Positions 1-61,496 of a stretch of DNA of 61,496 nt are shown piece by piece (position 1 is the first letter of the stretch; the number at the start of each line of letters is the position of its first letter). Under the pieces are notes generated by a model that saw nothing but the letters and a program-made list of their open reading frames with translations, was not told where the DNA came from and did not search any database. A program made the translations under genes and the position numbers. Origin of the DNA: a virus; the UHGV virus genome UHGV-1354897; one strand, written 5' to 3'.

Positions 1-54
1 CCATAAACTCGTCAAATAATACCAATAGGTACTATATACATTAATAATAAATCC
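1..54. repeat. terminal direct repeat, left copy (identical to 61437..61490)
   Basis: Exact 54-nt identity between window start and end; sequence diverges at position 55. Confidence 0.8.
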
Positions 55-123
55 TTATTTTATATATATTTATAGTTATTATTTACTATTAGTTTAATTA
101 TATTTGTTTTAGTTAGTTGACTG

Positions 124-441
124 AAAGTTTATAAGTTTATAGGGAGCGAGCCAACCGAGATTTCATAAAATGCATAGTATAGTGGTATAGTGGCATTCAC
201 TATGTTTCACTACTACTACTAATTCTTTGTTTGAAAACGGGGTAATAAGGGGAAAACCGTAAACTTATAAACTTTGCTCTGTGTCAAAAATAAAATTAGT
301 GAATAGTGGAATAGTGGTTTATAGTGGCAAACTTTTATAAAGCCAGTAACGGCGCACTATACACATTTTGCCCACTATGTACGCCACTAAGCACTATATT
401 AAAACAATCCTTGCAAATAGCTAATGTCTGTTTTATAGTGG
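124..441. repeat. iteron-like array of (A/T)ATAGTGG octamers in both orientations, bracketed by a 16-bp inverted repeat
   Basis: TATAGTGG at 178..185, 186..193, 320..327, 434..441; AATAGTGG at 302..309 and 310..317; reverse copy CCACTAT at 372..378; inverted repeat AAAGTTTATAAGTTTA (124..139) vs TAAACTTATAAACTTT (260..275). Confidence 0.6.
411..439 (+). promoter_or_regulatory. sigma70-like promoter candidate (TTGCAA, 17-nt spacer, TATAGT)
   Basis: -35 at 411..416 and -10 at 434..439, followed by RBS AGGAGG and ATG at 467. Confidence 0.4.
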
Positions 442-466
442 CTTCACCAGTTGACTAGGAGGATTT

Positions 467-1210
467 ATGAGCGAAGAAACTATCACATCCGCACCATTAA
501 CATCTAAAACTGTGGTTAAAGATCTGTGTTTTGCTGCGTGGGTTGTGCAAGCTTGCTCGCAGTTGCGCGGTGCGCCAACCAAATCACAGGCGCTTGCTAT
601 GGTGGAGGATTACTTCAACGAAGATGTGGAACAGCCTGTTAAAAAAGCTGTAAGACAAAAAGCGGGAAAGCTGGATGCAGAACGGGCGGCTTTCCTTGCA
701 TGGGTTAGCGATAAGCTGGGACATGAACTGGATGCCAAAGAGCTTCGCAGCTATACGGGCAAATTCAATTACCACATGGGCAAGGGTAACGACCCATATG
801 AAGAAGCATTTAAGGTAAAAGAAGATAAGGGTAAGGCGGGGCGCAAGGAAAACGTCGAGCTTAAAGCATGGATAGAGCGCCAAGCCTTGCTCAAAGGGGA
901 TCCTCTGACAGATAAGGAAGCGGATAAATTGACACATCGCTGGTACAGGATGCGCCGGAGCGGCGATGTTCGGGACTGGGATAATCGCGGTCGCTGGCCT
1001 ACGTGTTCCCTGCACCATTACGAAACCGCTACCGCTATCCGTGTCAAGCTTGGCGCTCATTGGGTAGACCTTGCACTATACAGGGATGCTGAACAGGCTA
1101 AAAATATTCTTCCGAACATTGATAATTGGCTTATTAGCTTAAGACAGGGAAGGGAGCCGCAGGACGTTATGTTAGAAGTTAGTAACCATATTATCACAAC
1201 TCCGCAATAA
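467..1210 (+). CDS. hypothetical protein, first gene downstream of the iteron-like array
   Basis: 247-aa ORF with AGGAGG RBS; no motif recognised. Confidence 0.6.
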   Translation: MSEETITSAPLTSKTVVKDLCFAAWVVQACSQLRGAPTKSQALAMVEDYFNEDVEQPVKKAVRQKAGKLDAERAAFLAWVSDKLGHELDAKELRSYTGKFNYHMGKGNDPYEEAFKVKEDKGKAGRKENVELKAWIERQALLKGDPLTDKEADKLTHRWYRMRRSGDVRDWDNRGRWPTCSLHHYETATAIRVKLGAHWVDLALYRDAEQAKNILPNIDNWLISLRQGREPQDVMLEVSNHIITTPQ

Positions 1211-1275: not shown

Positions 1276-1479
1276 ATGGATCACGAATCGGAATTTGATT
1301 TGAACTACATAACGGCAGCGGAAATCGAAGACCGTTATGGCATATCTAAGTTTAAGATGTCGCGCATACGTGACAGCATCCCGGGCGCTATCAGAATTGC
1401 TAACCAGTACATCTACAAACGCTCCTTAGCAGTGCCCGTTCTGGAAAAGATGCAAGGCGATAAGCGTCGGAGGTCTTAA
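1276..1479 (+). CDS. small putative DNA-binding protein (possible HTH)
   Basis: GGAGGG RBS before internal ATG at 1276; segment ITAAEIEDRYGISKFKMSRI looks like a helix-turn-helix. Confidence 0.5.
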   Translation: MDHESEFDLNYITAAEIEDRYGISKFKMSRIRDSIPGAIRIANQYIYKRSLAVPVLEKMQGDKRRRS

Positions 1480-1485
1480 TTAAAT

Positions 1486-3828
1486 ATGGAACTGTTTCCC
1501 GCTGAAATTAAAGCTTTCCCACAATGGGCGGTCGCCGATGCGGATAAAAAGCCTCTTGTATGGGACAACGATATTGGACGTTTGATGGCGGCGGACGTTA
1601 CCGATCCGGATATGCTTATGACGTTTGAAGCTGCCAAAGGTTGCGCCGCGCATTTCAACAAACCTTATATTGGCTTTGTGCTTACTGCACAAGACCCGTT
1701 CACCTGCATCGATCTGGATGTGAAGAACGCGACCAATGAACCTGATCCCAAGAAGCACACGACGCCGGAACAGTTGCGCCGCTTCGAACAGATCATGACT
1801 GCGTTCGATACTTACACCGAAGTAAGTCGCTCAGGTTTGGGTGTCCACCTGTGGTTAAGAGGTAACATCGGTAAAGGTCGCCGACGTGATGGTGTCGAGG
1901 TTTATAGTCAGGAGCGTTTTATTATCTGCACGGGCAATCCTGTTTATAACAAACCAGTTGCAGAACGTGATCATTATCTTACTATGCTTGTGAATGAAAT
2001 TGATCTTCAGCGCAAGACATATGAAATTGAACTGGTAGAAAAAGATCCGGTAGAAGACGATGCGACTATTCACCAGCGAGCACTTGAAGCGGACAACGGG
2101 GATAAGTATGCACGCCTATTCAATGGCGAATGGGTTGAAATGGGATTCCCTTCCCAGTCTGAAGCAGACCTTGCCCTTATTTCTATGTATGCATTCTACA
2201 CAGAAAGTAATGAGCAATGCCGTCGTCTGTTCCGTTACAGTGCACTGGGCAAACGTGAGAAGGCTAATAAGAACAATGTTCATATTGACCGTTGTTTGCG
2301 CATGTGCCGCGGTCGTATGGAGCGTGAGCGCATTGCCCAGGAAAACGTAGCGGCGCTGGCGCGGGATTACGCTGCTCGTATGCAAGCCGCACACAGTGCA
2401 ATGCAGCAGGTAACGGAAATGCCTGTGATTGTCGAAACAACACAGGGGCAGACAGTAGTTGCGGAAAGTACATCCATTGATGCAACAGCTATTGACTGGC
2501 CACCGGGACTCGCTGGGGAGCTTGCGAAGTACATCTACAAAGCATCCGTCCGACCAGTAAAAGAAATCTCTATTGTGACTGCGCTCGGCTTTATGGCTGG
2601 GGTATGCGGGAAAGTATGGCAGATTCCGCAATCCGGTCTTAATGGTTATTTTGTCTTAATTGCTCGTTCTGGTGTTGGTAAAGAGACGTTGAACAGTGGG
2701 CTGTCTAATATAGTTAGCCAGATTCAGGACCAGTTTCCGCAGATTCATAGCTTTGTATCTTTTGACAGATGCGCTTCTGGATCTGCACTGCGTAAATCTT
2801 TTGCAGACAAACAATCTTTTATCAACTTGAACGGTGAGTTTGGTAAGATTATCAAAGCAATGGCAACGGCTCCAGCAGGATCGCCGATGCAAAGTTTCAA
2901 GAATGACCTTACCGATGTTTATCAAAAGTCCGGTCAGATGTCTATCGTTGGTGGTATGTCTTATTCTGATAAGGCTAATAATACTGAAGCTCAACAAGGT
3001 GTGGCATATAGCATCATGGGCGAAACGACACCGGATACGTTCTTTGAAGCATTAACCCGTGAAATGATGGAGGACGGATTCTTATCCCGTTTCCATGTTG
3101 TACGCTATGAAGGTGATCGACCACCTTTAAACAAAAATCAGCAGACTACAATGGATCAGCATTTGAAGGACATGGTGTGCCATCTTGTTAACCACACTTT
3201 AGTAACAATGGCAAAGCATCAGAGTATTGAAGTACAGTTTAGCCCGGATGCGGAAACATTATGCGATCAGTTTAACGATGAATGTGATCGCAATATTAAC
3301 GCAACCAAAGACGAAGCGATCCGTCAGCCGTGGAACCGTGCTCACCTGAAGGTCTTGCGACTTTCTGCCTTGTTAGCTGTGGGTGAGAACTGGATCAATC
3401 CGGTGGTACAAACCTATCATGTGCAATGGGCTTTGGACTTCGTGCGTCATGGGCAGGATATTATTATGAAGGAATGGCATAGCGGAGGCATTGGGACTAA
3501 TGATGAAGCTCGTATCCGTACTATGTGTCAGGTCTGTGTGAATTATCTAACTAAAGACTGGGTGAAAGTTAAACGTGTAGATTTGCGCAAAGAAGGTATT
3601 ATCACGCGGGGTGATATTACTACGCGTCTTGCAAGTAAGTCCGCGTTTAAAAACTATCATCACGGATTATCCGCTGCAATCGAGTCTACAATCAAGGAGA
3701 TGGTTGCTATGGGTGCACTTGTTCCGGTAACACGGGAGGAGACTATTAAACTGGGATTTACTGGGGCAGCTTGGCGCATTACGCAAGATGTTGAAGGAAT
3801 TATGGCAAACTTAGGTGAAGAGGAATAA
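1486..3828 (+). CDS. DNA primase-helicase (AEP prim-pol N-terminal domain plus P-loop NTPase)
   Basis: AEP motifs CIDLDVKN and SGLGVHLWL; Walker A-like ARSGVGKET; 780 aa. Confidence 0.75.
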   Translation: MELFPAEIKAFPQWAVADADKKPLVWDNDIGRLMAADVTDPDMLMTFEAAKGCAAHFNKPYIGFVLTAQDPFTCIDLDVKNATNEPDPKKHTTPEQLRRFEQIMTAFDTYTEVSRSGLGVHLWLRGNIGKGRRRDGVEVYSQERFIICTGNPVYNKPVAERDHYLTMLVNEIDLQRKTYEIELVEKDPVEDDATIHQRALEADNGDKYARLFNGEWVEMGFPSQSEADLALISMYAFYTESNEQCRRLFRYSALGKREKANKNNVHIDRCLRMCRGRMERERIAQENVAALARDYAARMQAAHSAMQQVTEMPVIVETTQGQTVVAESTSIDATAIDWPPGLAGELAKYIYKASVRPVKEISIVTALGFMAGVCGKVWQIPQSGLNGYFVLIARSGVGKETLNSGLSNIVSQIQDQFPQIHSFVSFDRCASGSALRKSFADKQSFINLNGEFGKIIKAMATAPAGSPMQSFKNDLTDVYQKSGQMSIVGGMSYSDKANNTEAQQGVAYSIMGETTPDTFFEALTREMMEDGFLSRFHVVRYEGDRPPLNKNQQTTMDQHLKDMVCHLVNHTLVTMAKHQSIEVQFSPDAETLCDQFNDECDRNINATKDEAIRQPWNRAHLKVLRLSALLAVGENWINPVVQTYHVQWALDFVRHGQDIIMKEWHSGGIGTNDEARIRTMCQVCVNYLTKDWVKVKRVDLRKEGIITRGDITTRLASKSAFKNYHHGLSAAIESTIKEMVAMGALVPVTREETIKLGFTGAAWRITQDVEGIMANLGEEE

Positions 3829-60907: not shown

Positions 60908-61234
60908 ATGAAAAAGTTCATCCGCTCTTACACTGACATCCGAGGCTTGCGAAAAGGAACGGTTTATGAAGTTGCCGACTTCGGAAATAAAATATTGGTC
61001 CCTTATTACAATAAAGACGAAAAGCCGGTTCCAATGACCAGCGTATGCTTCACCCGCCTTATGCAGGACAAGTTCCTTGTAGAAGTGCAACCGATGCGCA
61101 AAGAAGGCACATCCGAAATCTGGTTTGTGCACCGCCAGGAACCGGATAGTATTTGGTCCGACTGGATAAGCGAAAAACTGTCGGGTATTATGTCCGACGA
61201 TACGCTAGCCCACTTCACACCTGTACAGCTCTAA
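60908..61234 (+). CDS. hypothetical protein
   Basis: 108-aa ORF with AAGGAA RBS. Confidence 0.6.
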   Translation: MKKFIRSYTDIRGLRKGTVYEVADFGNKILVPYYNKDEKPVPMTSVCFTRLMQDKFLVEVQPMRKEGTSEIWFVHRQEPDSIWSDWISEKLSGIMSDDTLAHFTPVQL

Positions 61235-61436
61235 AATACTCCCGGGCCAGCCCTCCTACTGGTCCGGTTAACCGCGCAATAAAGTCCTCCTCCAATATCT
61301 CGCGATTAAGCGCATTATAGCTTGATATACCTTCCGATCACAATAGTTCAATAAATTTCCCTCAAAAGCACTTGACTTCTCATTTTTGATCTGCATCCGT
61401 TCAGGTTTATGAAAATTTATAGAGTTTATATAATGA

Positions 61437-61490
61437 CCATAAACTCGTCAAATAATACCAATAGGTACTATATACATTAATAATAAATCC
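61437..61490. repeat. terminal direct repeat, right copy (identical to 1..54)
   Basis: Exact 54-nt match to the window start. Confidence 0.8.
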
Positions 61491-61496
61491 CCAAAC

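What the first reader, a model, noticed from the sequence alone, without database searches (positions are those of the whole stretch)
124..441. Iteron-like array of TATAGTGG octamers next to the terminal repeat
At least six perfect (A/T)ATAGTGG copies in two tandem clusters, plus reverse copies, lie upstream of the first rightward gene, and a 16-bp inverted repeat brackets the first cluster. The final copy coincides with the -10 of a promoter candidate. This architecture fits a replication origin or a multi-site operator.
Basis: seen in the sequence. Interest (0 to 1): 0.55.

Follow-up and report, generated by a model that had tools for sequence, protein, structure and literature searches.

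The report
Phage origin-region protein-binding repeat array
The TATAGTGG repeats are real and are most likely docking sites for the phage's own 247-residue protein, sitting beside what looks like this coliphage's replication origin, a region nobody has described for this phage group.

Summary
There are six perfect WATAGTGG octamers and five reverse copies between 178 and 441, and a perfect 16-bp inverted repeat. In dinucleotide shuffles of the span, 0 of 2000 reach the observed count. The 'terminal repeat' does not hold: it is a 54-nt assembly overlap, and the window is a circularly opened Seuratvirus genome (98% identical to phiG7).

Comparison of 18 related genomes shows two independent repeat systems.

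It switches to ATAGGG/TAGGGG exactly where the N-terminal 118 residues of the downstream 247-aa orphan protein switch type. It does not follow the small HTH protein gp67, the primase or the host.
- **Motif B (GTTTATA).** This motif makes up the 16-bp inverted repeat and flanks an 87-92% AT tract at 15-120, the least stable DNA in the genome. It switches to GTTTTG or TTTTAY with the C-terminal domain allele of the prim-pol/MCM-like helicase (1486-3828).

My best reading is a composite origin. B sites plus the AT tract would load a SaPI-PriRep-like self-loading helicase. The TATAGTGG array would be a gp247-bound iteron/operator set that also overlaps the operon promoter. No binding or initiation data exist, so this rests on co-variation and anatomy. 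I class it as a new variant of a known kind, of moderate interest.

The parts
178..193 (+). Motif A cluster I, forward copies: TATAGTGG TATAGTGG. A degenerate ATAGTAT lies at 172-178.
   Evidence: ATAGTGGCAT is invariant across T-type relatives.
197..221 (-). Motif A cluster I, reverse side: TCACTAT (197-203) and the conserved CACTACTACTACTA (208-221), read on the + strand.
   Evidence: The block is invariant in alignment A7.
296..327 (+). Motif A cluster II, forward copies: TTAGTGA, AATAGTGG, AATAGTGG, TATAGTGG. Starts are 8 and 10 bp apart.
   Evidence: TATAGTGGCA at 320-329 is invariant in T-type relatives.
340..354 (.). Conserved non-repeat spacer AAGCCAGTAACGGCG between the forward and reverse sets of cluster II. 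Its role is unknown.
   Evidence: Nearly invariant across five diverged T-type phages.
354..397 (-). Motif A cluster II, reverse copies: GCACTAT (354-360), CCACTAT (372-378), CCACTAA (384-390) and GCACTAT (391-397), read on the + strand.
   Evidence: All four are conserved in alignment A7.
411..441 (+). Sigma-70-like promoter candidate TTGCAA-17-TATAGT. The last motif A copy (434-441) overlaps the -10 hexamer.
   Evidence: TTGCAA/TTGCTA-type promoters with a copy of the cognate motif in or next to the core occur in the Seurat, L021 and L019 lineages. A promoter is annotated at the equivalent place in SA126VB.
124..141 (+). Motif B, right-hand pair: AAAGTTTATAAGTTTATA (GTTTATA at 127-133 and 135-141). 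This is the left arm of the 16-bp inverted repeat.
   Evidence: It is replaced by GTTTTAGGTTTTTGG in phages with primase allele 2 and by T-rich TTTTAY units in allele 3.
258..275 (-). Motif B, inverted pair: right arm of the inverted repeat, TAAACTTATAAACTTT (GTTTATA at 266-272 on the - strand).
   Evidence: In CSP1 it becomes CCAAAAACCCAAAACTTT, so the arms change together.
61405..61436 (+). Motif B, left-hand cluster: GTTTATG, ATTTATA and GTTTATA in direct order. Across the contig junction it continues into a reverse GTTTATG at window 2-8.
   Evidence: Between window and CSP1 this roughly 50-bp patch is 58% identical while its flanks are 96-98% identical.
2..8 (-). Motif B, inverted copy (CATAAAC on the + strand) that closes the left-hand cluster.
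   Evidence: It becomes CCCAAAAAC in allele 2 phages and CTATAAAA(T/C) in allele 3 phages.
15..120 (.). AT-rich tract, a candidate DNA unwinding element, lying between the two motif B groups.
   Evidence: Windows of 60-100 bp here are 87-92% AT, the highest in the genome. The 100-bp window starting at 15 has nearest-neighbour dG -96.2 kcal/mol, against -110.2 for the next least stable and a genome mean of -135.7 (sd 7.7).
467..1210 (+). gp247, an orphan 247-aa protein and the candidate binder of motif A through residues about 1-118.
   Evidence: No Pfam or NCBIfam family.
1276..1479 (+). gp67, a small Xis/MerR-like helix-turn-helix protein (phrog_11967). It is always found immediately upstream of the primase gene.
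   Evidence: It does not co-vary with either motif.
1486..3828 (+). Prim-pol / MCM-like helicase / C-terminal domain protein (780 aa), the candidate binder of motif B through residues 661-780.
61437..61496 (.). Assembly overlap: a copy of window 1-54 plus 6 unmatched bases. It is not a biological terminal repeat.
   Evidence: The sequence is internal and single-copy in relatives.

Best explanation
The window is a Seuratvirus (Queuovirinae) coliphage genome opened inside a 670-bp non-coding region just upstream of the replication operon gp247 - gp67 - primase/helicase. I read that region as a composite replication origin with two separate recognition systems. System B has three parts. The first is the most AT-rich, least stable 100 bp of the genome (15-120). 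The third is the protein these units would bind, the C-terminal (probably winged-helix) domain of the 780-aa prim-pol/MCM-like helicase. That helicase would load itself and melt the AT tract, as SaPI PriRep5/Rep and P4 alpha do. About eleven ATAGTGG sites form two clusters, each with forward copies followed by reverse copies, plus one site on the -10 of the operon promoter. These are cognate sites for the adjacent orphan protein gp247, with specificity set by its N-terminal ~118 residues. Occupancy of the array would (i) autoregulate the TTGCAA-17-TATAGT promoter and (ii) organise or license the neighbouring origin. In this it would resemble a plasmid Rep or lambda O protein, which serves as both initiator and autorepressor. 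Shown here: the repeats, their non-random clustering, the AT tract, the protein architectures and the two co-variation patterns. Inferred: every binding event, origin firing, and which of the two roles (origin accessory or operator) dominates.
For: (1) The repeats are real and far beyond chance.
(2) Motif A follows the gp247 type. Nine phages with a window-like gp247 N-half carry 6-10 ATAGTG and 0-2 TAGGG. Five phages with the Seurat-like N-half carry 11-14 TAGGG and 0-1 ATAGTG, in the same layout.
(3) Only gp247 residues 1-118 group by motif type: at least 60% identity within the T type, 42-57% between types. Fixed differences concentrate at residues 61-109, with a 4-residue insertion. Residues 119-170 and 171-247 group differently.
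(4) Between window and CSP1 the array DNA is 40-70% identical, yet the sites themselves are kept, and gp247 codons 20-120 are 80-98% identical.
(5) Other binders are excluded. The primase is at least 98.6% identical between window (ATAGTGG) and Seurat (ATAGGGT). All these phages infect E. coli, which argues against a host factor. Contig L017 has a gp67 whose recognition helix (SKFKMSRLR) and wing match the T-type phages, but it carries ATAGGGTA repeats.
(6) Cognate motif copies sit in the promoter core in three lineages.
(7) Origin context: the tract at 15-114 is the least stable DNA of the genome by 14 kcal/mol.
(8) Motif B follows the primase C-terminal domain allele. GTTTATA occurs 4-5 times only with allele 1 (and with yong3, allele 4), GTTTTG 4-7 times only with allele 2, and TTTTAY 8-19 times with allele 3.
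(9) Between alleles 1 and 2 the primase is 100% identical over residues 1-300, 71% over 301-660 and 42% over 661-780.
(10) The B patches are not contiguous with the primase 3' half. They are separated by conserved DNA and by the A module, which assorts independently: 7 of the 9 possible A x B combinations are seen.
(11) The primase N-terminus matches SaPI5 PriRep5 (7OLA, E 7e-11) and NrS-1 prim-pol. Its middle part is MCM-like. Its last 100 residues are predicted as helix-strand-helix-helix-strand-strand.
(12) SaPI Reps bind iterons on both sides of an AT-rich region through a C-terminal winged helix (PMC9371898).
(13) No DnaA or IHF consensus is present, which fits a self-contained phage origin.
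Against: There is no experimental binding, footprint or origin-mapping data for any Seuratvirus.

The T-versus-G split of gp247 is in effect one evolutionary switch, maintained across recombinant backgrounds, so the co-variation is suggestive and not statistical proof.

Close relatives (GottfriedDienst, VogelGryff, contig L022) lack gp247 altogether and carry GGAATAA repeats instead, with no shared candidate binder identified. gp247 therefore cannot be a universally required initiator.

Site spacing of 7-10 bp, with sites abutting, is unlike classic ~22-bp plasmid iterons.

Hafnia phage yong3 has a fourth C-terminal domain allele (47% identical to allele 1) but GTTTATA-type units, so the allele-to-motif mapping is not strictly one-to-one.

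The winged-helix assignment of the primase C-terminal domain rests on secondary-structure order only. A profile search of the PDB found nothing.

GC skew cannot help, because it follows gene orientation.
Confidence: 0.5

Rival explanations
1. The array is a pure transcriptional operator. The octamers are sites for gp247 acting only as a transcription factor (autorepressor or temporal switch) on the promoter of the replication operon. They have no role in initiation, and the origin is either the B/AT-tract element alone or lies elsewhere.
For: One copy lies on the -10 hexamer of TTGCAA-17-TATAGT. Cognate copies lie in the promoter core in the Seurat-type and L019 lineages. gp247 is dispensable in related phages that have identical primases, which suits a regulator better than an essential initiator. 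Specificity-swapping regulator/operator modules are common in phages (established knowledge of lambdoid immunity regions).
Against: Ten of the eleven sites lie 40-260 bp upstream of the promoter, in two convergent clusters, and cluster I is nested inside the inverted motif B pairs next to the AT tract. That is many sites, and an odd placement, for simple autorepression. CSP1 and SA126VB keep the distal clusters but lack a promoter-overlapping copy. This reading is not exclusive of the best explanation, because iteron initiators commonly autoregulate.
Confidence: 0.25
2. The octamers are bound by gp67 (1276..1479), the small Xis/MerR-like helix-turn-helix protein. It would form head-to-tail filaments on closely spaced direct repeats, as lambda Xis does.
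For: gp67 is the only small protein here with a DNA-binding signature by sequence. Its PSTCR7 homologue hits HTH_17 at E 3e-5, below the Pfam cut-off, and MerR at E 2e-3. It is present in every module type, including phages without gp247. Abutting repeats spaced 8-10 bp suit Xis-like proteins (established knowledge of lambda Xis X1/X1.5/X2 sites). Its recognition helix differs between window (SKFKMSRIR) and Seurat (SRYKLCRNR).
Against: Contig L017 carries ATAGGGTA repeats but has a gp67 whose helix (SKFKMSRLR) and wing are those of ATAGTG phages. It differs from the window's helix by one Ile-to-Leu change. L021 and Seurat share an identical gp67, yet their repeat units differ in detail. gp67 homologues sit upstream of the primase in PSTCR7, Vid5 and JG054, and none of the intergenic stretches checked in PSTCR7 and JG054 shows a strong repeat array.
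Confidence: 0.08
3. The octamers are the true origin iterons of the primase-helicase itself (P4 alpha / SaPI Rep style), or recognition sequences for its prim-pol domain.
For: Octamers in both orientations in two clusters resemble the P4 type I iterons of ori and crr (my recollection of the P4 literature; not checked here because search failed). The gene lies 1 kb downstream. NrS-1-type prim-pols are the closest solved relatives.
Against: The primase is at least 98.6% identical, and 100% over residues 661-780, between phages with ATAGTGG (window), ATAGGGT (Seurat, CAjan) and TAGGGGTA (L021) arrays. The same motif A occurs with three different C-terminal domain alleles. The prim-pol domain is 100% identical across alleles 1 and 2.
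Confidence: 0.04
4. The array has no sequence-specific function: slippage or duplication debris in an AT-rich spacer, a structural bend or cruciform element, an RNA element, or a packaging or partition site.
For: The region is non-coding and repeat-rich. The RNA fold of 115-285 is slightly better than shuffles (z = -2.0, 10 of 200 shuffles as good). The CSP1C record labels the gp67 homologue a 'redirecting packaging protein'.
Against: Sites are kept while the DNA between them diverges to 40-70% identity. Whole sets of sites switch sequence coordinately between lineages. There is no Rfam match. No ParA/ParB-like genes were seen in the neighbourhood. In the relatives' records the array lies about 10 kb from the record ends. 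The CSP1C annotation sits among several implausible names in the same record.
Confidence: 0.05

Closest known systems
SaPI replication origins with Rep / PriRep5 self-loading helicases (Staphylococcus aureus pathogenicity islands)
   Same: The protein is of similar length and order: prim-pol, then an NTD, then an SF3/MCM-type ATPase, then a small C-terminal domain. The N-terminus is homologous to PriRep5 (7OLA, E 7e-11). Short repeats lie on both sides of an AT-rich tract, with units in opposite orientation. Repeat sequence follows a highly variable C-terminal domain while the enzymatic core stays constant (PMC9371898).
   Different: The putative origin lies upstream of the gene, separated from it by two other genes; in SaPIs it lies immediately downstream of rep. 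The element is a virulent 61-kb siphovirus, not a satellite. A second, independent repeat system with its own orphan protein is interleaved, and SaPI origins have nothing like it. Winged-helix identity of the C-terminal domain is not established.
Iteron origins with an autoregulated initiator (plasmid Rep proteins such as RepA/pi/TrfA; phage lambda O at ori-lambda)
   Same: There are multiple copies of one short sequence next to an AT-rich unwinding element. The cognate protein is encoded next door. A site overlaps the protein's own promoter. Initiator and site specificity swap as a module between relatives, as in lambdoid O/ori (established knowledge; review PMC4980987 listed).
   Different: Units are 7-8 bp and abut (starts 8-10 bp apart), against 17-22 bp units in helical phase. 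Forward and reverse sets converge. gp247 matches no Rep_3, lambda-O or other initiator family. gp247 is absent from close relatives. No DnaA boxes accompany the array.
Phage P4 ori/crr with the alpha primase-helicase
   Same: Octamer repeats in both orientations, arranged in two separated clusters, near a fused primase-helicase gene (from my memory of the P4 literature).
   Different: In P4 the helicase-primase itself binds the octamers through its C-terminal domain. Here the octamer type is independent of the primase. P4 alpha has a DnaG-type primase, not a prim-pol.
Lambda Xis / excisionase-type filaments on tandem sites
   Same: Closely spaced direct repeats, with a small Xis/MerR-like HTH protein (gp67) encoded nearby.
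   Different: gp67 does not co-vary with the repeats. There is no integrase or attachment site, and the phage group is virulent.

Membership tests
Iteron-type replication origin | Several copies of one short sequence clustered in a non-coding region | tested here: met
   Eleven ATAGTGG-type sites lie in 264 bp. None of 2000 shuffles reaches the observed count.
Iteron-type replication origin | Adjacent AT-rich DNA unwinding element | tested here: met
   The tract at 15-120 is 87-92% AT and is the least stable 100 bp of the genome, at -96.2 against a mean of -135.7 kcal/mol. It lies about 60 bp left of the first octamer cluster, and motif B units lie between them.
Iteron-type replication origin | Cognate initiator protein binds the repeats | tested here: inconclusive
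   Only co-variation is available: motif type follows gp247 residues 1-118. There is no binding assay, and gp247 has no known DNA-binding fold.
Iteron-type replication origin | Units of about 17-22 bp repeated in helical phase | tested here: not met
   Units are 7-8 bp, with starts 8, 8 and 10 bp apart (forward) and 18, 12 and 7 bp apart (reverse).
Iteron-type replication origin | Replication starts at the site | not testable with these tools
   This needs marker-frequency sequencing, 2D gels or a plasmid ori assay. GC skew is confounded by gene orientation.
SaPI/PriRep-type self-loading helicase origin | Fused prim-pol plus SF3/MCM-like ATPase | tested here: met
   7OLA at E 7e-11 and NrS-1 at E 2e-7 by sequence. 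Foldseek gives NrS-1 N300 at E 1e-10 and MCM at E 1e-5. Pfam finds DUF3987 and the NrS-1 HBD domain.
SaPI/PriRep-type self-loading helicase origin | C-terminal winged-helix domain that reads the iterons | tested here: inconclusive
   The AF2 model gives H673-689, E705-707, H708-715, H728-742, E745-747 and E762-765, an order like a winged helix, at pLDDT around 90. A profile search of PDB sequences found nothing, and the isolated domain could not be fold-searched.
SaPI/PriRep-type self-loading helicase origin | Iterons on both sides of an AT-rich tract, with opposite orientations represented | tested here: met
   This holds for motif B only: 61405-61430 (three forward) and 2-8 (reverse) on the left; 127-141 (two forward) and 258-272 (reverse) on the right. 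It does not hold for the TATAGTGG octamers.
SaPI/PriRep-type self-loading helicase origin | Iteron sequence follows the C-terminal domain allele | tested here: met
   Across 16 genomes, alleles 1, 2 and 3 carry GTTTATA, GTTTTG and TTTTAY respectively without exception. Allele 4 (yong3) also has GTTTATA.
SaPI/PriRep-type self-loading helicase origin | Origin lies immediately downstream of the rep gene | tested here: not met
   The repeats lie 1-1.5 kb upstream of the primase gene, with gp247 and gp67 between.
Known initiator or regulator protein families (Rep_3, lambda O, DnaD-like, TetR and others) for gp247 | Significant match to the family profile or fold | tested here: not met
Xis/MerR-type HTH (HTH_17) for gp67 | Score above the Pfam gathering threshold | tested here: inconclusive
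   The window protein has no hit. The PSTCR7 homologue scores 24.4 bits against a cut-off of 27 (E 3e-5), and the JG054 homologue has E 0.036. All belong to the same PHROG family.
Sigma-70 promoter with overlapping operator | -35/-10 hexamers with 16-18 bp spacing, and a regulator site within the core | tested here: inconclusive
   TTGCAA-17-TATAGT scores 9 of 12, and the number of such sites in the region is no higher than in shuffles. The position and the cognate-site overlap recur in relatives. There is no transcript data.
Direct terminal repeat of a phage genome | The same sequence at both physical ends of virion DNA | tested here: not met
   The duplication is 54 nt plus a 6-nt unmatched tail. 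In related records the sequence is internal and single-copy. This is typical of an assembly overlap.

The most novel reading that the evidence does not exclude
Seuratviruses may carry a 'two-key' origin. Two non-homologous recognition systems are interleaved in one 670-bp region and recombine independently among co-circulating phages. One pairs the helicase-primase C-terminal domain with GTTTATA-type units. The other pairs the orphan gp247, through a previously unrecognised DNA-binding module at about residues 60-110, with TATAGTGG-type units. Together they would give each phage a private replication address (7 of 9 possible combinations are already seen). gp247 would then found a new family of sequence-specific origin or operator proteins. 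Its loss in GottfriedDienst-type phages, which carry GGAATAA repeats, would point to a third, still unidentified key.
Probability: 0.3. Interest if true: 0.7.

Novelty: new variant of a known kind. Interest (0 to 1): 0.55.

Why it matters
No replication origin or early regulatory circuit has been described for the Queuovirinae. These are common coliphages, included in the BASEL collection and known so far mainly for 7-deazaguanine DNA. This region gives concrete, cheap experiments: two protein/site pairs with natural specificity variants that serve as built-in controls. If confirmed, it would extend the SaPI/P4 'self-loading helicase reads its own iterons' principle to virulent siphoviruses. 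It would add a new orphan DNA-binding family. It would also show origin specificity being shuffled by recombination inside a helicase gene: residues 1-300 are identical and residues 661-780 are 42% identical between alleles. That bears on how co-infecting phages keep their replicons distinct, and on engineering phage chassis. If instead the array is only an operator, it is an ordinary autoregulatory site set.

Tried and rejected
- **Homologue scan in IMG/VR with the gp247 alignment:** only one locus, which was slur01 itself.
- **AP2-like reading of gp247 171-247:** this rests on my inspection of the sequence pattern only and is not claimed.
- **Family and profile searches for gp247:** Pfam and NCBIfam gave nothing. 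The exhaustive profile search found only its own family plus one spurious eukaryotic BTB protein.
- **Profile of the primase C-terminal domain against PDB sequences:** nothing found.
- **RNA readings:** Rfam finds no family in the whole window. The RNA fold of 115-285 is only marginally better than shuffles, so I dropped an RNA-element reading.
- **Tandem Repeats Finder:** nothing in the region.
- **Host-factor sites:** no DnaA, IHF or LexA consensus in the window's intergenic region.
- **A second origin-like site:** I considered the second most AT-rich spot (about 33.1 kb), where a lone TATAGTGG (33471) and two GTTTATA lie nearby. It is an ordinary divergent promoter gap, and the octamer there is inside a gene.
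- **gp67 as the octamer binder:** considered first, then rejected on L017.
- **The primase as the octamer binder:** rejected.
- **Binder of the GGAATAA repeats in gp247-less phages:** I looked for a protein shared by GottfriedDienst and L022. Only a diverged gp67 is shared, so the question is unresolved.
- **Distant relatives of the primase:** the JG054 and PSTCR7 intergenic stretches checked show no strong repeat array, and the Vid5 and JenK1 loci show no long non-coding gap upstream of the primase in their gene tables. The arrangement could not be generalised beyond Seuratvirus-like genomes.
- **Literature:** nothing on Seuratvirus origins. The P4 search failed on a term-length rule.
Full report
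**What the window is.** The first 4 kb match Escherichia phage phiG7 at 98% and SeppeHuegi at 95%. The part from 1450 onward matches Seurat and CAjan at 93-94%. All of these are Seuratvirus (Queuovirinae) siphoviruses of E. coli. Window 1-54 is repeated at 61437-61490 and followed by six unmatched bases. In the relatives this sequence is internal and single-copy. The 'terminal repeat' is therefore an assembly overlap, and the contig was opened inside a non-coding region. Rejoined, that region is 61235-61436 plus 1-466, about 670 bp. It lies between a 108-aa gene ending at 61234 and three co-oriented genes:
- 467-1210: gp247, which belongs to no known family.
- 1276-1479: gp67 (phrog_11967).
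- 1486-3828: a 780-aa primase/helicase with Pfam DUF3987 and the NrS-1 HBD domain.

**Checking the observation.** Only one other copy exists in the genome, and it lies inside a gene at 33471. Reverse copies lie at 197-203, 354-360, 372-378, 384-390 and 391-397. Seven of the nine ATAGTGG in the genome fall within 264 bp. None of 2000 dinucleotide shuffles of the span reaches the observed counts of ATAGTGG, ATAGTG or TAGTG. The 16-nt inverted repeat 124-139/260-275 is perfect. TTGCAA-17-TATAGT at 411-439 puts the last octamer on the -10 hexamer, although that promoter match alone is no better than chance. Each cluster has forward copies followed by reverse copies.

The arms of the inverted repeat are each two units of GTTTATA. 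Further units (three direct and one inverted) lie at 61405-61430 and 2-8. Between the two groups, 15-120 is 87-92% AT. It is the least stable 100 bp of the whole genome: -96.2 kcal/mol, against -110.2 for the next window and a genome mean of -135.7 with sd 7.7. There are no DnaA, IHF or LexA consensus sites here, no Rfam family, and only a marginal RNA-fold signal.

**Comparative evidence for the octamers (motif A).** I collected the homologous region from 18 genomes and contigs.
- Seurat, CAjan, slur01, L017 and L021 keep the same layout, but the repeated unit is ATAGGGT or TAGGGGTA. They carry 11-14 TAGGG and 0-1 ATAGTG. The nine window-like phages carry 6-10 ATAGTG and 0-2 TAGGG.
- CSP1, WildeMaa, SA126VB, Dru_SM1 and L019 have array DNA that has diverged to 40-70% identity, yet the ATAGTG sites are kept. 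Kept sites include ATAGTGGCA, all four reverse copies, a CACTACTACTACTA block and an AAGCCAGTAACGGCG spacer.

**Which protein follows the switch in motif A.**
- Not the primase. It is at least 98.6% identical between window and Seurat, and 100% identical over residues 661-780.
- Not a host factor, since all these phages grow on E. coli.
- Not gp67. Contig L017 has ATAGGGTA repeats, but its gp67 has the helix SKFKMSRLR and a wing like those of ATAGTG phages, one Ile/Leu change away from the window's helix.
- gp247 does follow it, and only in its first 118 residues. Identity there is at least 60% within the T type and 42-57% between types. Fixed differences concentrate at 61-109, with a 4-residue insertion. 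Residues 119-170 and 171-247 group in other ways.
- Between window and CSP1, gp247 codons 20-120 are 80-98% identical while the rest of the gene and the array DNA are not.

**What is known about gp247.** The family is tiny. There are 11 clusters among 5.8 billion proteins, and an exhaustive profile search of 1.84 billion proteins adds nothing. The AF2 model (pLDDT 75.6) shows helical hairpins followed by a three-stranded sheet plus helix, with no convincing fold match. gp247 is therefore the best candidate binder, but by correlation only.

**Comparative evidence for GTTTATA (motif B).**
- The primase exists in discrete alleles. Between allele 1 (window, phiG7, SeppeHuegi, Seurat, CAjan, L021) and allele 2 (CSP1, WildeMaa, SA126VB, Dru_SM1, GottfriedDienst, VogelGryff), residues 1-300 are 100% identical, 301-660 are 71% identical and 661-780 are 42% identical. 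Allele 3 (L017, L019, L022) and allele 4 (yong3) differ again.
- GTTTATA occurs 4-5 times with allele 1 and never with alleles 2 or 3. GTTTTG occurs 4-7 times with allele 2 only. TTTTAY units dominate with allele 3.
- Both arms of the inverted repeat change together. In CSP1 they become AAAGTTTTAGGTTTTTGG and CCAAAAACCCAAAACTTT.
- The left-hand cluster is a 50-bp patch of 58% identity inside flanks of 96-98% identity.
- Motif A types and motif B types assort independently: 7 of the 9 possible combinations are seen. Simple linkage therefore does not explain the pairing.
- yong3 is a partial exception, with a fourth allele but GTTTATA-type units.

**The primase/helicase.** Its N-terminus is homologous to SaPI5 PriRep5 (7OLA, E 7e-11) and to NrS-1 prim-pol. 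The AF2 model (pLDDT 86.7) matches NrS-1 N300 and MCM ATPases. The last 100 residues fold as helix-strand-helix-helix-strand-strand. That order is like a winged helix, but no sequence match confirms it. In SaPIs the Rep C-terminal winged helix reads short iterons placed on both sides of an AT-rich region, and the helicase loads itself (PMC9371898). The Seuratvirus B units, AT tract and variable C-terminal domain reproduce that logic. The differences are that the site lies upstream of the gene and that the host element is a virulent phage.

**Synthesis.** The most economical reading is a composite origin.
- The B units and the AT tract form the helicase-loading core.
Cluster I is nested between the inverted B pairs, cluster II lies further right, and one site sits on the operon promoter.
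- Cognate motif copies also sit in the promoter core of the Seurat-type and L019 lineages. Autoregulation is therefore likely, and a role in organising or licensing the origin is plausible.
- The main rival is that the array is only an operator. I cannot separate the two readings without experiments.

**Cautions.**
- GottfriedDienst, VogelGryff and L022 lack gp247 and carry GGAATAA repeats with no identified binder. gp247 is therefore not universally required.
- The site spacing is unlike that of classic iterons.
- No paper in the library addresses replication or regulation in this genus.

**Verdict.** The array is best filed as a new variant of the iteron/operator theme next to a SaPI-like self-loading helicase origin. 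Confidence in the composite model is about 0.5.

Noticed in passing
window 61437-61496 and 1-54: The contig ends with a 54-nt copy of its start plus six unmatched bases (CCAAAC). This looks like a circular-assembly overlap with a trimming artefact, not a direct terminal repeat.
   Followed up: yes
window 1486-3828 (primase) compared with L005, L010, L017, L023: There is a sharp mosaic boundary inside the primase gene. Residues 1-300 are 100% identical between two phage groups, while residues 661-780 are only 42% identical. At least four C-terminal domain alleles circulate.
   Followed up: yes
window 61314-61343, minus strand: A leftward sigma-70-like promoter, TTGTGA-18-TATAAT (10 of 12 matches), is the best promoter match in the region. 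Its sequence (GCATTATAGCTTGATATACCTTCCGATCACAA) is conserved in all relatives, including the distant L017 and yong3. It would read antisense into the 108-aa gene. Its function is unknown.
   Followed up: partly
window 61242-61267: A conserved GC-rich hairpin (CCGGGCCAG...CTGGTCCGG) lies right after the 108-aa gene and has no T-run. The equivalent site is annotated as a rho-independent terminator in SA126VB.
   Followed up: partly
window 340-354 and 208-221: Two non-octamer blocks inside the array, AAGCCAGTAACGGCG and CACTACTACTACTA, are almost invariant across diverged T-type phages. G-type phage L021 has analogous AGTAGTAG runs fused to its own motif. The functional unit may be longer than the octamer.
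   Followed up: partly
window 237-259: A G-tract element (CGGGGTAATAAGGGGAAAACCG) lies between cluster I and the right arm of the inverted repeat. GGGG-containing counterparts occur at the same place in the Seurat, CSP1, L017 and L019 lineages. It is unexplained.
   Followed up: no
window 324-458: A 44-aa GTG-start ORF lies within the repeat array. Its equivalents are annotated as hypothetical proteins in SeppeHuegi, KurtStettler and WildeMaa. The stretch has indels and about 40-70% identity between lineages, so it is probably a miscalled gene.
   Followed up: partly
L010 1429-2258, L011, L022 1873-3202, L009 (Dru_SM1): Related phages without gp247 carry 8-9 GGAATAA/TTATTCC repeats in the equivalent region. 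Dru_SM1 has an upstream TTATTCC cluster together with ATAGTG clusters. In GottfriedDienst, VogelGryff and Dru_SM1 a LexA-box-like CTGTATATCCATACAC lies beside the TTATTCC cluster (L010 1591, L011 1579, L009 919). No binder was identified.
   Followed up: partly
between gp67 and the primase: L001 6479-6691, L002 5477-5692, L009 2516-3040, L021 4564-5097: The gp67/primase junction is an insertion hot spot. phiG7, SeppeHuegi and KurtStettler carry an extra 71-aa ORF that the window lacks. Dru_SM1 and L021 carry HNH endonuclease genes there. GottfriedDienst carries two small ORFs, one with a weak AP2-domain hit.
   Followed up: partly
L013 3294-3497 (phage CSP1C record): The gp67 homologue is annotated as a 'redirecting packaging protein'. 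Neighbouring small ORFs in the same record carry implausible names (maltose-binding protein, coproporphyrinogen oxidase), so the label is probably unreliable.
   Followed up: no
L014, L015, L024 (PSTCR7, JG054, Vid5): A gp67-like Xis/MerR-type HTH gene sits directly upstream of the homologous primase gene, even in phages of other genera with only 44-58% primase identity. This suggests a conserved functional pair.
   Followed up: partly
window 33072-33196: The second most AT-rich stretch of the genome lies in a short gap between divergent genes. It has no repeat array.
   Followed up: yes
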